64,000 nt of DNA from Mustelus asterias (lineage: Eukaryota): NCBI RefSeq assembly GCF_964213995.1, contig NW_027590452.1:62001-126000 (forward strand), given 5' to 3'. Each line of letters begins with the position of its first letter. The first letter of the stretch is position 1. The notes under the pieces are model-generated. The model saw nothing but the letters and a program-made list of their open reading frames with translations. It did no database searches and was not told the DNA's origin. The position numbers were made by a program, and so were the translations under genes. Shown one piece after another: positions 15,493-38,044 of the stretch.

Positions 15493-15977
15493 ATGGGGGT
15501 GAAACTCTATCTGACTCTGGTTCTTGTCCTGATCACAGGTCGGTCATTCTAAACCTCTGAAATCCATCAATCACCATATTCATTGCCCATTTCCATCTCT
15601 AGGCGATTTTATTCCGTTGTTGTTATTCCACCTAACCCGCTTTGTGTCCGTTGTTATTTTCAGAGATGACTAATGGTGACTCAGTGTCCCAGTCAGTACC
15701 GGTAATCCAAGCAGCAGAGGGTGACCATTCACGAATTCCCTGCTGTTACTCTGTATCGAGTACAGCTGCACAACAAAATTACCTGTTCTGGTATCGCCAG
15801 TATCCACACCGAGCTCCTCAGTATCTGCTCAGAAACAGTGGTTATGGGTTTACCGATAAGGCTCCCGGCTTTGAACACTTCAGCGGGAATCTCAGCCTGA
15901 AACAAAGCACTTTTCTCTTGTCCAAGAAAGGTTTGAAGCTGACAGACAGAGTCGTGACTTACTGTGCAATGAGACCC
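15493..15977 (+). pseudogene. TCR alpha/delta-type V segment (V1): open frame but RSS deleted
   Basis: Leader exon 15493-15538 (MGVKLYLTLVLVLIT) and V exon 15664-15977 (DSVSQ...IPCCYS...YLFWYRQYP...VVTYCAMRP). TGACGTCA at 15394. No heptamer/nonamer after the coding end. Confidence 0.85.
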
Positions 15978-16269
15978 AGAATCAAGAGTCTGTTGTCAGG
16001 AAAACACATGACGTTGAATTACAGAGAAACTGTTCATAGAATGAATCCGTCAGTGCAGCTTCATCTGAGTGGCTTTCCGTCCCTGAGGTCAATGATTTCC
16101 ACTTGGTAAGTGTAATATTTGTCGCTCAGATTACTCCCAGATCAAATCCAATCATTTCCCATCCCAATCACACAAACCCGCAGAGCGCCCGGGCGAATAA
16201 CTCCACCAATCTCTACTTTTAATCTTTCTGTATCAGATGCCTATCTGTCAGTGGAAATCTGTTTAATAA

Positions 16270-19960: not shown

Positions 19961-20326
19961 CCCCTATAAACTAGATACAGTTTCTCTTCTTAATGCATGG
20001 GGCCATCCCTCTGTATATACTACAATTGGTCTTTACTTAGTTATTGCTTCACTCAACTATGTCACTGTTTCCAATGCACTCAGTGAAGTCACAGTTATTG
20101 ACGCACGCAGCCATGCCTCTATCTACACCACACCCGACAATTTCTAAGCTGTTGCTGCAATTGCCTCTCTGAAATTCCCCCTCCCCACCCCCAGAACACC
20201 CATCTGCTGCCTTCCCACATTGTCACTGTTCTCGCTGTAAAAGGGAAGTTGAAGCAAGTAAAACCTCGTTCCAATCCGCACTCTTATTAACCTGCTATAG
20301 TGTCACTGGATCCTCTCAGCTTACGT

Positions 20327-20937
20327 ACATGTGTCGCAGTGGTGTTTTTAGTCCTGTTGAAGGAGACCTGGATTTCAGTGAGCAGAAATATCCCAAGCTG
20401 AGATATAATCAGTGTGCTTGTGAGGAAAATCGCTATATTGTTAGGGCCAGGGGTGGGAATGAAGTCGCTGGTCTGATTATTGTAACAGAGAAACACTGGG
20501 TTGCGAATTGTGTCAGAAAACATTTGACAGACATTCAAAATGAGAATGAACATTGATGGCAACTTGTTCTCAGGGATTGTTTTGAATAGCACAATGATAA
20601 CCTTGCGAAATGTATATGCCAATATAAGCTGTCCCTTAGGCAGCAAAATACTCTGATCAAATAGACCCTTTGATCAAAGAGATCTTGAAAAGGAGAGTGA
20701 AGATGGGGAAAGTGCTGCACAATAATTCACACAGGCAAGAAAATGTCATCAAAGGTTGAAGCGTGAGTTAAGGAACTGTAAATGTATTTTTAGTATAGTT
20801 GCAAGTTAAAAATTCAACTGTGGCTCAGCCGTTCGTGTTGAGTGTTGTGTTTTGTTTTGATATTTTGTTTATGACCCTGTGACTATCACTGTCGAGACAA
20901 AATAATTACTTCTGTTTATCAGTGTGGGAGCGCCCTC
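20327..20937 (+). repeat. ~610-bp near-identical direct duplicate of 37402-38013 (3' flank of V9)
   Basis: Read-across identity from acatgtgtcgcagtggtg to agtgtgggagcgccctc. Confidence 0.92.
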
Positions 20938-24800: not shown

Positions 24801-26199
24801 ATGCGGCTCCCCGTTTTCTCTCTGATCTGGGTGACATTCATTGTTGGTGAGTTTAACACTTTAAAAATGAGTTATTTTCTGGAGAGATAAAGTTGAAAAG
24901 CAGGACATTCGTGTTACACAGGTATTGGACCTGCCGTAGAACAGAAATGAATCCTTGCGAGTGGTTTTAGTCTTTTGAAAATAGTTTCGAAAAGCACACT
25001 GCAGAGGCGATTCGAGAGATGGTACCCGGATTGGGAGATGAGAGCTATCAGAATGCAAGGTTATGATTACTTTCTCGACTGACCAAGGAAACTAACGCAA
25101 ATCTGACTGATCTATTTATAATGATATCGAGGATTGGTGTGGTGGACGGGGAGAGGATGATTCCACTTGTGGAAGGATTCCAAATATCTGTCCCATGAAT
25201 CTAATGAAACAAATAGATCAACTGGGAATCGGAGAGAAACATCTTTAGAAAGAGTTGGGTAGAATGTGACTCATATTAACACAATGAACACTTGAGGAGA
25301 GGAGCAAAGACTAATTTAAAGGTGAACTAAACTGGGCGGCATGGTAGCACAGTGGTTAGCACTGCTGCTTCACAGTTCCAGTGGACCTGGGTTCGATTCC
25401 CGGCTTGGGTCACTGTCTGCGTGGAGTTTGCACATTCTCCTCGTGTCTGCGTGGGTTTACTCCGGGTGCTCCGGTTTCCTCCCACAGTCCAAAGATGTGC
25501 GGGTTAGGTTGATTGGCCATGCTAAAATTGCCCCTTAGTGTCCTGAGATGCGTAGGTTAGGGGGATTAGCGGGTAAATATGTAGGGATATGGGGGTAGGG
25601 CCTGGGTGGGATTGTGGTCGGTGCAGACTCGATGGGCCGAATGGCCTGTTTCTGCACTGTAGGGTTTCTATGATTTCTATGATGAGAAACTAAACAGCTG
25701 AGGAAGAAACGGACAGATGCATTGAGAAGAGGCGAGAGGGAGGAATCTCCTGGGGATTGTAAACGGGAACGTAGATCAGTTGGAGAGAATGTGGTATGAT
25801 TCAATACATATTTTTATGTTACACTGTCAGTGAATTTTCTCTCTGAGTTCAATTGAACTTTGAAACAATGTTTTTTCTTTAACCGTGTGTTCCAGATCTG
25901 AGCGATGGAGATTCTGTTACTCGGCGGGAATCCTCACTCACACGGACAGAGGGAGAAGATGTCACTTTAAACTGCACCTTTACCGACGATGCCTATTATT
26001 TATTCTGGTACCGTCAATATCCAGGCAGACAGCCCGAGTTTGCAGTCCGGAGAGACAAGAACGGCGGTTTTGAATTAAAGGCGGATTTCGCTCGGACCCG
26101 GTTTTCTGATTCAGTCCAGCAGTTAGACAAGTTGTACCGATTGACCATCTCGGAGTTGCTGCTGTCTGACACTGCGGTCTATTACTGTGCACAGAGTCT
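24801..26199 (+). CDS. TCR alpha/delta-type V segment (V3), potentially functional
   Basis: Leader 24801-24846 (MRLPVFSLIWVTFIV). V exon 25896-26199, translated manually: DLSDGDSVTRRESSLTRTEGEDVTLNCTFTDDAYYLFWYRQYPGRQPEFAVRRDKNGGFELKADFARTRFSDSVQQLDKLYRLTISELLLSDTAVYYCAQS. CRE at 24719. Confidence 0.92.
25334..25680 (+). mobile_element. tRNA-derived SINE in the V3 leader intron
   Basis: GGGCGGCATGGTAGCACAGTGGTTAGC...GGTTCGATTCCC head (box A/B) and tttctatga tail. Confidence 0.85.
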
Positions 26200-30553: not shown

Positions 30554-30592
30554 GGTTTTGGCACGGGACCTGCCTGTGTTTTTTACACTGTG
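30554..30592 (-). other. 23-RSS of V6
   Basis: CACAGTG, 23 nt, GCCAAAACC. Confidence 0.88.
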
Positions 30593-30925
30593 CCTCACGG
30601 CGCAGAGATAGGTGGCAGTGTCTGAAACCTGTACGTCCCTCACAGTCAGGATGCTGAGTTTGTTGCTTTCAACGATCGAAGCAGTGATCCTCCCATGTTG
30701 ATCGGTTCCTCTTGTGGCCATCACCAGATGCTGGGGTGACTGATTCGGGAGCTGTTTATACCAACGCACGATGTCAAACGTAATGGAAATAGTGCAGTTC
30801 ATGGATATATTTCTCGCTTCACTGATAACCATCCGTGGAGGGAGCTGCAGCAACTCAGCTTCTCCGGTCATCCCCGTGCAGATCAGAGTGATAAACAACA
30901 AAACGTCGATGCCAATCCTGACCAT
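30593..30925 (-). CDS. TCR alpha-type V segment (V6) with intronless, fused leader
   Basis: Single ORF MVRIGIDVLLFITLICTG-MTGEAELLQ...MNCTIS...VRWYKQ...VSDTATYLCAVR followed directly by the RSS. No AG acceptor at the usual leader/V boundary. Confidence 0.85.
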
Positions 30926-31561
30926 TCTCAGTTCACACACAACACCGAGATCAGCTTTGAACCAGGAGATGGAAATTAACCCGGAACCAAGTATTTTCTT
31001 CGGGTTCAGTTCAGTGCCGTGTTTATGTTGAACTGACAACATTAGGCGGGTTCTACTTTAGCCACCCATACTGAGCGTTTCACACTGACACAGGCCCACA
31101 CAACCTCTGAGGACACACCTGACACGCCCAGATTAAATATTTCTCACGCGACACACTGCTCTCTACTGGTGAATACTGGTAATTCCAGGGTGCAATTCTT
31201 CACTTGGATCTTCGACAAGTTGCAGTTCACGAGATAGTTATAAATGAGAAGAGCTGTTTCCTCCTTCTTGTTATAGCTCTTTCATTGCGGGAGAGCTTAC
31301 AACGTTCCTTCATCGATCCAACGATTGCAGTGCATTTTGCTCTCTCGTTCTTTCTGAAGTTTCATTCCACACTGTGACCAGTCCCGGTCTGACAAGAAGA
31401 AGGTCCTGATGTTAGTCCTAAAATATCGTTCGATAATTTGGGAACTTGTGCAATGGGAACTGGTCTATCCATCGAATGTATGTTACATAACTACAGGAGT
31501 GGCAACATTGACAATTCATAAGAATATTTCAAAAAATAATAAGTTTGTTATCAGTGTTAAC

Positions 31562-33274: not shown

Positions 33275-34165
33275 ATGTCTCCTGTGACTCTGTGCTTATT
33301 CCTCACAGCTGCAGCTCTACTAACCGGTAGGTTCACAAGTTACAAACTCTGCGTTTCACATATTTACCATTCACTGCATTCAATTGAGCAGTTCGATTAA
33401 CACACTGGTAAAATATATATTGATTCTAATATCAATTAGAATCATCTTTGTTTCTGCAAGGGAGGAGGCAAAATACCTCAGCTGAATGAGAGTGAAGAGT
33501 TAAGGTGGGATTGCAGGCCCCACCGGAGCCGCTGAGGGACTTTGACAAACTTGATAAAATCTGGATGAAAGCTTTGACAAACCCGAGATCTAAAACCCAC
33601 GGACAGTTTAGTTTCCCCAACAAATAACGTGAAACGAAGGCGAGGATCTGATCTCCTTAGAAGGTGTTCATTAAACGGAGTGTCGTTTAACCGCGACAAA
33701 CACGTTCCCGTTACAACCTGCGTGTTGCGGGATTTATATTCCTGTTTAGATGCTGTGGTTCGTTTTTCAGATTATTGGCCAGGGTGACGGGCCGAATCCG
33801 GCCATTAAACAAAGTGAACTGACATCGTTTAATTTCGCATTACTCTTGGCTCTTACAGGACAATGTGGAGGAGATCCAGTTTCACAGATCCCGGCTGCAG
33901 TCACAGTGAGTGAAGGAGATGATGTTCAGTTATTCTGTAATTATACAACTGCAAGCACTGACAATTATTACCTATTCTGGTACCGTCAGTATCCCAGCGG
34001 ATCCATGGAGTATCTACTGATGAGAAGCAAATATACCGGGAACAAAGAGAGATTCCCAGGAGACCGTTTATCAGCGGAGCTCAATGATACAACCCGCACG
34101 GTCCCGCTGAAAATGTCTAAAACAGAGCTGGCAGACTCCGGGGTGTATTACTGCGCACTGAGACC
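33275..34165 (+). CDS. TCR alpha/delta-type V segment (V7), potentially functional
   Basis: Leader 33275-33326 (MSPVTLCLFLTAAALLT) and V exon 33859-34165 (DPVSQ...LFCNY...YLFWYRQYP...ADSGVYYCALRP). Confidence 0.93.
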
Positions 34166-34927: not shown

Positions 34928-34966
34928 GGTTTTTGTACGACTCGTATTGATCTTTACAACACTGTG
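34928..34966 (-). other. 23-RSS of V8
   Basis: CACAGTG, 23 nt, ACAAAAACC (perfect consensus). Confidence 0.95.
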
Positions 34967-35485
34967 CGCCCACCGCACAGAAATAGGTAGCAGTGTCTGT
35001 CACCCGAGTGTCGCCGACACTCAGAACGCTGCGTTTCTCTGCAACAATGTTCCGAGCCCTGATCCTGCCCTGATCGCTGGTACCGCTCACCAGGTGCTGC
35101 ACGGTTCGGTCCGGGTATTGTCTGTACCATTGTAGGACCAGTCCAGCTGCTGTAGTGGAACAGTTCAACGATGCTAGGTCTCCCTCGGTAACCACCACAG
35201 ACTCTGGAGACTGTGATACCTCTTCACTACCAGCGGCATCTGGGAAGGATATGTAGATATGCAACAACATCATAAAATTAAAATCTCATACTGCAATACA
35301 ATGTTGCACAATGAAGTACAATTGAACGCATAATACAAGATAACACAACAAAACAGAATACTATTTAACAGAACATAGCATCGCTAATGTGTGAAATATC
35401 GCTGTCAGAAATAGCGACCACACTTACACTGAGGGAAGAGTAAGAAATCCAGGGAGATGATCACTGAAGCGAAGCTGAGCTTCAT
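34967..35485 (-). CDS. TCR alpha-type V segment (V8), potentially functional
   Basis: Leader 35428-35485 (MKLSFASVIISLDFLLFPQ) and V exon 34967-35239 (EEVSQSPESVVVTEGDLASLNCST...LQWYRQYP...VTDTATYFCAVG). Confidence 0.9.
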
Positions 35486-35813: not shown

Positions 35814-38044
35814 GTGGGTCTGGTCTGAGGGACAGAAACATCTCTCCCGGAGCTGATCTGAATCTCCAGCCCTGAGTTTGTGGGAATTTACAACTGATCA
35901 GAAACTGGTTTAACCTGTAAACTGATTTGATGGCGGATCTGCCGGTCTGATCGGATTCTGCAGTTAATTTTCTCAGTCATGGCTGGAAAATAAATGGGTG
36001 AATGTTGAGTCCGAGGTTAATGTGGTTCCCGCTGGGTGTGTGTTTTATGCGGCTGAGAACAGCACTGCTCACAGTGGCTGTATCTATCCAGATTCTAGCC
36101 TTTGTCTAACATCAAGTGTAATTTGCTAATCCTGCACTTGATAGAAATCAATAAGGTTACATCGAGGTTTCTTTTGAATCAATTTTTAAAAAAACGCCAT
36201 CTGGGCCTTTTTCTAAGATGAAGCTCAGGTCAAGCACTGGAAGGAATATAATACCTGCTCCAATCAGCTAGGATGTTGTTAATCAAGCCCAAGGCTGGAA
36301 GAATGGGCCCTGTGTTGTCAGCTTCGATCTGCAATGTCTCTCTTGCAGCGACCTTTGAGTGGACCAATTCGGTTTTTGATTGGATATAACTAAAACAGAA
36401 AGCAGGCATCTCGGTCTTTGGGCTCGAATCAAGCATCAAATCGAGTCCAAGATCAGGTGCGATGCTCTTTCATGTCAGCTTGGATTTTTTGCGAGGACCA
36501 TGAATTAGATTCAATTTGAATTGGTTTTGGGGGCAATTAGGAGATGGATTCTGGCTTGGCCAGTCCGCTCTCTGCATTGGCTTTGCAACGTTAAGCAATT
36601 ACTATTTTACAATCCGACAGACAGGAGCTCCCGAACACAATGCAAAGTGCGGGGTTGGATTGGTTTCCATCATAAATTCCGTAAGTGAGTCCTTATTCTG
36701 ATCAACTCTTCAGAGTCCAATTTCTCCAGCTGGAGATGGAGAGAGGTTTGGCTGCCTGACCGGTGCTGTTGCTGTTGTTTGTTTCACGATTGTCTGCAAA
36801 CATGAGTAAGACTCCCTGCGAGCGCAGTTCAATATCATAAAGCTGATATTGATCAGTGAGTTCCAGAATAAAACAAAGACAATCCTTGCAATGTCATAGT
36901 TGAAACTTGTAAAAAAAACTACTTCTGTTTCTGTCTCATCATTTGAGGACAATCAGTAAGTGACATAATTTCCATGACTCAGATCTGAAATACATGTTCA
37001 AACCCGAACAATCATATCGGAGTGTGTTTAAACTTTAGGTTGAAATCACGATTGGGAAATTACTTTAAATGTGTTTATTCCACAATTGCCTATCTGAAGT
37101 TCCCCCTCCCCACCCCGTCTCAACCGAGGCAGACCGAGGGCCGGGTAACTGCAGAATACCCTCGGCCTGAGTAACTGTGTGCCAACCTGAAAAATAACGG
37201 CACACAGTAAACTCTGACACATGTATATAGTTTTAAGAAATGAAATGTAACAAAATGTAATGTTTTTGTAAATGAGCACGGTATTGTACTGTAAAAATGA
37301 TTCTTTTTTGCACTGTTTATGACCTTTGGATCTGTCATTTTGCAATGTTTTATTGGAGAGTTTATTTTTTGTGAATAAAGTATATTTTTGAAATAAAAAA
37401 AACATGTGTCGCAGTGGTGTTTTTAGCCCTGAAGCTGGAGACCTGGCTTTCAGTGAGCAGAAATATCCCAAGCTGAGATATAATCAGTGTGCTTGTGAGG
37501 AAAATCGCTACATTGTTGGGGGCCAGGGGTGGGAATGAAGTCGCTGGTCTGATTATTGTAACAGAGAAACACTGGGTTGTGAATTGTGTCAGAAAACATT
37601 TGACAGACATTCAAAATGAGAATGAACATTGATGGCAACCTGTTCTCAGTGATTGTTTTAAATAGCACAATGACAACCTTGCGAAATGTATATGCCAATA
37701 TAAGCTGTCCCTTAGGCAGCAAAATACTCTGATCAGATAGACCCTTTGATCAAAGAGACCTTGAAAAGGAGAGTGAAGATGGGGAAAGTGCTGCACAATA
37801 ATTCACACAGGCAAGAAAATGTCATCAAAGGTTGAAGCGTGAGTTAAGGAACTGTAAATGTATTTTTAGTATAGTAGCAAGTTAAAAACTCAACTGTGGC
37901 TCAGCTGTTCGTGTTGAGTGTTGTGTTTTGTTTTGATATTTTGTTTATGACCCTGTGACTATCACTGTCGAGACAAAGTAATTATTTCTGTTTATCAGTG
38001 TGGGAGCGCCCTCTGCTGATCACTAACCGGAACTCCCAGTCTGG

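What the first reader, a model, noticed from the sequence alone, without database searches (positions are those of the whole stretch)
30554..30925. Intronless leader-V TCR segment that still carries a 23-RSS
Seen: the other eight V segments have a 46-58-nt leader exon and a phase-1 intron. In V6 a 17-residue hydrophobic leader runs straight into G-MTG-EAELLQ at the position where the intron normally lies, and the RSS is intact. The similar short-CDR2 segment V8 keeps its intron. Established: a single-exon leader-V structure is known for the chicken V-alpha1 family. Inference: either precise intron loss through a reverse-transcribed spliced germline transcript (the kept RSS excludes a rearranged mRNA source), or an ancient intronless V-alpha lineage shared by sharks and birds.
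Basis: partly seen in the sequence, partly recalled or inferred. Interest (0 to 1): 0.7.

Follow-up and report, generated by a model that had tools for sequence, protein, structure and literature searches.

The report
Shark T-cell receptor genes lost intron
This T-cell receptor variable gene, likely from a shark, has its predicted signal peptide and antigen-binding domain in one exon and belongs to a whole family built that way; the family probably lost its intron through an RNA copy, likely independently of a similar case in birds, and still keeps the signal needed for rearrangement.

Summary
V6 (30925-30593, minus strand) reads ATG, leader, V domain without a break and ends in a 23-RSS whose nonamer has 2 mismatches. 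It is not a one-off: about 78 of 150 scored matches in the same genome belong to its family. None of 60 copies examined has AG at the intron position, none has a hydrophobic ATG leader exon upstream, and 44 of 60 are intact. A collinear relative exists in Chiloscyllium punctatum. The leader resembles exon 1, not the intron, of the intron-bearing V8 family, and one clade's 5' flank matches the V8 5' flank for about 180 nt: intron loss, not intron exonisation. A clade with bird V-alpha1 is rejected (AU p=0.0017). A cDNA route is likely but unproven: no poly(A) or target-site duplication, no RNA data. One clade sits behind a truncated second V gene whose promoter it probably borrows. Known precedent: chicken TRAV1/TRGV1.

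The parts
30874..30925 (-). Leader part equivalent to exon 1 (17 codons + 1 nt), fused to the V exon; predicted signal peptide, cleavage by eye after Gly21
   Evidence: best 8-residue hydropathy mean 3.34; SignalP not available
30593..30873 (-). L2 + V region of TCR alpha/delta type, short CDR2
   Evidence: Pfam V-set E 1.2e-8; most top PDB hits are TCR alpha chains
30554..30592 (-). 23-RSS: heptamer 30592-30586 perfect, nonamer 30562-30554 with 2 mismatches
30926..31090 (-). 5' flank homologous between family clades A and B; in clade B it is collinear with the 5' flank of V8-family exon 1
   Evidence: clade A itself gives no direct signal against V8
30955..31118 (-). Predicted new 5' UTR intron (donor-like site at -193, acceptor-like site at -29); it would remove two upstream ATGs at 31069 and 31042
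   Evidence: both sites present in 27 of 30 clade A loci; no RNA evidence
34928..35485 (-). Comparator V8: exon 1 35485-35428, intron 35427-35240, V exon from 35239, 23-RSS from 34966; CRE motifs upstream

Best explanation
V6 is a single-exon leader-V gene of TCR alpha/delta type and one member of a large family in this genome whose ancestor likely lost the leader intron through a reverse-transcribed, spliced, unrearranged (germline) transcript of a V8-like gene, likely independently of bird V-alpha1. Shown: contiguous ORF, RSS, family, no AG at the junction, no upstream ATG leader exon. Inferred: the copy carried about 180 nt of 5' UTR, the joined leader, V and RSS but not the CRE promoter; it re-entered the V field, spread by duplication and picked up new 5' sequences (three unrelated ones; clade C sits behind the promoter, ATG-less leader exon, intron and FR1 of another V gene). 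After V-J or V-D-J joining the 21-residue leader would be translated without splicing and cleaved as usual.
For: 0 of 60 copies have AG at the junction; the triplet reads CGG 39, CTG 11, CCG 4, ATG 3, GGA 2, CGA 1. ATG in register in 55 of 60; 4 more have an in-frame ATG two codons upstream; stop in the leader in 1 of 60 against 41 of 60 in the 17 codons upstream and 9 of 9 V8-family intron tails. No hydrophobic ATG..GT exon upstream in 60 of 60. 44 of 60 have ATG, ORF and RSS. Leader against V8 exon 1: z 3.3, 6.0, 2.5 for clades A, B, C; against the V8 intron tail: -0.3, 0.8, 2.2. Clade B 5' flank against V8 5' flank in 60-nt blocks: z 9.1, 4.2, 3.3, then -5.3, -0.7, -1.4, 1.5; six other V genes give z -1.9 to 1.6 in the first three blocks. 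CRE absent within 700 nt in 53 of 53 A/B loci, CRE-like motifs in 5 of 5 V8-family loci. A and B far-upstream profiles do not hit each other's far-upstream region. V6 family plus bird V-alpha1 rejected, p-AU 0.0017.
Against: No poly(A) remnant or target-site duplication seen; clades share 200 nt or more below the RSS. nhmmer did not detect V8-UTR/V6-UTR homology at E<5; clade A alone shows none (z about 1); local-alignment windows were noisy; one control block reached z 3.7. The codon test did not favour coding: pN/pS 0.80 in the leader, third positions least variable. V5 and V9 also lack a CRE within 800 nt, so its absence is not specific. The join cannot be shown to be nucleotide-precise. 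V6 itself has a 2-mismatch nonamer and two upstream ATGs. Order of clades A, B, C is unresolved.
Confidence: 0.57

Rival explanations
1. The intron was removed in genomic DNA by an in-frame deletion (microhomology-mediated repair), or by in-place conversion; the promoter was replaced later by rearrangements in this unstable V field.
For: The end of V8 exon 1 and the end of its intron share a CTTCCC hexamer; a deletion between them would be in frame and one codon short (inference). The leader part is 6 nt shorter than in V8. No retroposition hallmarks. Clade C shows that 5' ends get swapped by DNA events.
Against: Homology to V8 stops near -180, just downstream of the CRE array, as a transcript start would predict; no A or B copy keeps the CRE (53 of 53).
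Confidence: 0.26
2. The hydrophobic stretch is the old intron's polypyrimidine tract: the AG mutated and the tract was either recruited as a new signal peptide or the gene is dead.
For: One A at the junction would give a good acceptor; intron tails of V2, V7, V8 and V9 also translate as hydrophobic stretches; codon test inconclusive; clade C leader scores almost equally on exon and intron tail; donor-like site at -193 in clade A.
Against: Leader and clade B 5' flank match V8 exon 1 and its flank, not the intron; conserved ATG and open frame; the sequence before the -193 site is not leader-like and the site is not shared with clade B.
Confidence: 0.07
3. An ancient intronless V-alpha lineage shared by sharks and birds.
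For: Both fall in one broad group in the quick tree (SH-aLRT 93), and both have single-exon leaders (chicken: PMC10972964).
Against: AU test p=0.0017; bird V-alpha1 groups with sheep, tree shrew and squamate V domains (97/84). It would need intron regain in mammals (two-exon state recalled). Only 87 columns and two bird rows; the quick tree was seen before the test.
Confidence: 0.03
4. The family is a set of silent retro-relics carried along by segmental duplication and not used in receptors.
For: No CRE in clades A and B; upstream ATGs; 16 of 60 copies fail the intactness test.
Against: 44 of 60 intact across three clades at 55-100% identity; an in-frame ATG two codons upstream where clade C lost the original; CDR1 varies while frameworks hold in a tandem array; relatives in at least one other shark.
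Confidence: 0.07

Closest known systems
Chicken TRAV1 (V-alpha1) and TRGV1 single-exon leader V genes (PMC10972964, PMC8456604; passages seen)
   Same: Leader and V in one exon, RSS kept, expanded into a family inside a TCR locus.
   Different: Not the same lineage by tree test; here the likely two-exon source family and the 5' boundary are still traceable, and clades have different 5' ends.
Opossum TRMVj / V-mu-j (PMC2275272, PMC6170632; passages seen)
   Same: Leader intron missing, retrotransposition proposed.
   Different: TRMVj is pre-joined to D and J, so it came from a rearranged mRNA; V6 keeps its RSS and must still rearrange.
Ordinary elasmobranch TCR alpha/delta V segments with split leader (PMC12227049, which calls the split leader canonical for all antigen receptor genes; passages)
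   Same: V-set domain, Cys23/Trp41/Cys104, 23-RSS, scattered V field in both orientations.
   Different: No leader intron; no CRE in clades A and B.
Retrogenes that gain promoters through new 5' UTR exons and introns (recalled, no call)
   Same: Predicted new UTR intron in clade A; borrowed promoter, exon and intron in clade C.
   Different: No poly(A) or target-site duplication found; the copy is a rearranging segment.

Membership tests
TCR alpha/delta V segment | V-set domain with Cys23, Trp41, Cys104, closest to TCR alpha | tested here: met
TCR alpha/delta V segment | 3' RSS with 23-nt spacer | tested here: met
   nonamer 7 of 9
TCR alpha/delta V segment | Linkage to J and C-alpha/C-delta | tested here: inconclusive
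   PF09291 search found nothing, and its control rang nowhere
TCR alpha/delta V segment | Use in rearranged transcripts | not testable with these tools
   no RNA holder listed
TCR alpha/delta V segment | Split leader (two exons) | tested here: not met
   this is the finding
Avian TRAV1 lineage | Single-exon leader | tested here: met
Avian TRAV1 lineage | One clade with bird V-alpha1 domains | tested here: not met
   p-AU 0.0017; bird rows P0102 and P0123 assigned by the QVQQ motif given in PMC10972964; their exon structure not checked in DNA
Retrogene (processed copy) | Intron absent relative to a parent | tested here: met
Retrogene (processed copy) | Homology to parent ends near the transcript start; parent promoter absent | tested here: inconclusive
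   ends near -180 in clade B; true start unknown; not seen directly in clade A
Retrogene (processed copy) | Poly(A) tail and target-site duplication | tested here: not met
   none seen by eye in 700 nt below the RSS of 13 loci; could have decayed
Germline-joined V (TRMVj type) | V fused to D/J, RSS gone | tested here: not met

The most novel reading that the evidence does not exclude
A shark TCR V family descends from a retroposed germline transcript that stayed able to rearrange, expanded to dozens of working genes, and regained expression three ways, once by hijacking the promoter, leader exon and intron of another V gene as a 5' UTR. That would show unrearranged TCR V segments being transcribed, spliced and reverse-transcribed in the germ line, and retroposition adding to the T-cell repertoire independently in sharks and birds.
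Probability: 0.4. Interest if true: 0.65.

Novelty: new variant of a known kind. Interest (0 to 1): 0.45.

Why it matters
The split leader is treated as canonical for antigen receptor V genes (PMC12227049), and chicken V-alpha1 is described as unique (PMC10972964). A second, independent loss in sharks, with the source family still recognisable, makes the mechanism testable. Annotation tools that require a splice acceptor would miss or mislabel dozens of V genes here. Clade C is a clear case of one V gene sitting behind the control region of another. I found no report of single-exon TCR V genes in cartilaginous fish in 10 full-text searches, but six key papers were not held, so this is a weak blank.

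Tried and rejected
RNA: no RNA holder listed; the four runs laid were contigs covering genes and flanks alike, with no joints; no evidence either way. The search for homologous proteins found nothing, near or longer. Codon-position and pN/pS test: inconclusive. nhmmer V8-UTR against V6-family flanks: no hit. Sliding local alignments: too noisy. TCR-alpha constant search in the own genome: blank, control silent. Five peptide motifs in 4 supplement files of PMC5931798: no occurrence; figures are not held. Idea that clade C marks the family's original insertion site: not settled, clade order unresolved in the DNA tree; A and B share the V8-like flank, which favours C as secondary. Idea of a decayed V exon upstream of clades A and B: no support. 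Papers not held: Parra and Miller 2012, Deiss 2019, Criscitiello 2010, Parra 2010, Ott 2021, Gobel 1994. No fold or complex prediction was run; neither bears on the question.

Full report
Observation. On the minus strand an ATG at 30925 opens a frame that runs through a hydrophobic leader, Cys23 (30796), Trp41 and Cys104 to 30593, followed by CACAGTG, 23 nt and GCCAAAACC. The product is a V-set domain whose best solved relatives are mostly TCR alpha chains. Nine V segments lie in the window. Seven of the other eight have a pyrimidine-tract AG 77 nt before the Cys23 codon; V5 has it at 67 nt with a frameshift. V6 has CGG there and no hydrophobic ATG..GT exon within 3 kb upstream. That the source is a shark is inferred from the nearest named relative and agrees with earlier notes on this genome.

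A family, not a single gene. About 78 of 150 scored matches in the own genome are 55-100% identical to V6 (small contigs may repeat one place, so this is no copy number). I examined 60 copies in 58 loci. None has AG at the junction; 55 have the ATG in register and 4 more have an in-frame ATG two codons upstream; 1 has a stop in the leader, while 41 have a stop in the 17 codons before it and 9 of 9 V8-family intron tails have one. None has a hydrophobic ATG leader exon in up to 1.1 kb upstream, and 44 have ATG, ORF and RSS. A codon-level test did not add support (pN/pS 0.80; third positions least variable). P0004 from Chiloscyllium punctatum (52%) and P0002 from an unnamed 1001-nt contig (63%) align over leader and V and fall in the family; their single-exon state is inferred from collinearity, not seen in DNA.

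Intron loss or exonised intron? Intron tails of ordinary V genes here translate as hydrophobic stretches, so the rival had to be tested. The nearest intron-bearing family by identity is that of V8 (about 40%; sister in the quick tree at SH-aLRT 86, unresolved in the careful one). The V6-family leader aligns better with V8 exon 1 (z 3.3, 6.0, 2.5 for clades A, B, C) than with the V8 intron tail (-0.3, 0.8, 2.2). The 5' flank of clade B (4 loci) is collinear with that of V8 exon 1 (5 loci): 60-nt blocks give z 9.1, 4.2, 3.3, then -5.3 and noise; it does not match the intron (z 0.1, 1.1), and six other V genes give -1.9 to 1.6 over the first three blocks, with one later control block at 3.7. Clade A, which holds V6, shows no direct signal but shares its flank with B (E about 1e-12). 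nhmmer did not find the V8 link. Rows are related and nulls are shuffles, so z values are guides, not probabilities. The weight favours loss of the intron. The leader part is 52 nt against 58 nt in V8, so precision is not shown.

Mechanism. The V8 match stops near -180, just below the CRE-like motifs found in 5 of 5 V8-family loci; 53 of 53 A and B loci lack a CRE within 700 nt, though V5 and V9 lack one too. Further upstream the three clades are unrelated. This fits a copy of a spliced germline transcript that lost its promoter; the kept RSS excludes a rearranged mRNA. Against it: no poly(A) or target-site duplication in 13 loci viewed, and a shared hexamer at the V8 exon and intron ends would allow an in-frame DNA deletion. 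How a V transcript would reach germ cells is inference; CRE-driven expression in spermatids is recalled from mammals.

New 5' ends. In clade C (5 loci) the sequence from about -520 to -20 is 74% identical to the promoter, leader exon, intron and FR1 of a different, intron-bearing V family; the host ATG is lost, donor and acceptor are kept, and the sequence switches to the single-exon ORF just before the host Cys23 position. In clade A a donor-like site at -193 and an acceptor-like site at -29 are both present in 27 of 30 loci and in V6 would remove two upstream ATGs. Clade B has donor- and acceptor-like sites near -369 and -200 in most copies. These UTR introns are predictions. Whether C is a secondary fusion is not settled by the DNA tree.

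Not the bird lineage. From 100 extracted V domains, 81 went into a quick tree (19 duplicates or incomplete domains dropped; L059 left out for a frameshift) and 40 into a careful tree. The V6 family is one clade (100/98). Two bird domains with the QVQQ motif that PMC10972964 uses for TRAV1 (curlew P0102, song sparrow P0123) group with sheep, tree shrew and squamate domains (97/84). Forcing them together with the V6 family is rejected (p-AU 0.0017, 87 columns).

Literature. Passages were seen, by term search, of PMC10972964 and PMC8456604 (chicken TRAV1, TRGV1 single-exon), PMC2275272 and PMC6170632 (opossum TRMVj), PMC12227049 (split leader canonical), PMC5931798 (supplements searched), PMC12529555, PMC8559430, PMC12698447 and PMC5278385 (no single-exon V described in the passages shown). 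Ten searches gave no report for cartilaginous fish; six key papers were not held.

Verdict. A real single-exon V family, probably an independent shark case of a structure known from chicken, most likely made through an RNA copy. Expression is untested. New variant of a known kind; interest 0.45.

Noticed in passing
L034:640-1185 (also L035, L036, L042, L059); host family L077-L082: Clade C chimera: promoter, ATG-less leader exon, intron and FR1 of another V family directly in front of the single-exon ORF.
   Followed up: yes
G000:C71:19363811-19397248: Tandem array of 12 single-exon V genes at about 2.46-kb period, differing mainly in CDR1.
   Followed up: partly
window 27940-27620 (V4), 29339-29039 (V5), 15664-15990 (V1): V4 appears to have lost its in-frame ATG and has a stop at the Cys104 position; V5 has an FR1 frameshift but a good RSS; V1 lacks a CAC heptamer. 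Probably pseudogenes.
   Followed up: partly
window 24846-25896 (V3), 33326-33859 (V7): Long leader introns (about 1050 and 530 nt); that of V3 holds a SINE-like repeat (label recalled).
   Followed up: no
window 20263-20430 and 37406-37506: Repeated element found mostly on V-bearing contigs, weakly similar to the far upstream region of clade B (E 3e-6); nature unknown.
   Followed up: partly
window 35273-35240 (V8 intron end): An in-frame ATG in the V8 intron tail gives a short hydrophobic stretch running into the V exon, a possible alternative leader.
   Followed up: no
L069 (G000:C14:97891534-97891692): V6-like fragment (58% over 53 residues, one stop) on a different 107-Mb contig, a possible orphon.
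   Followed up: no
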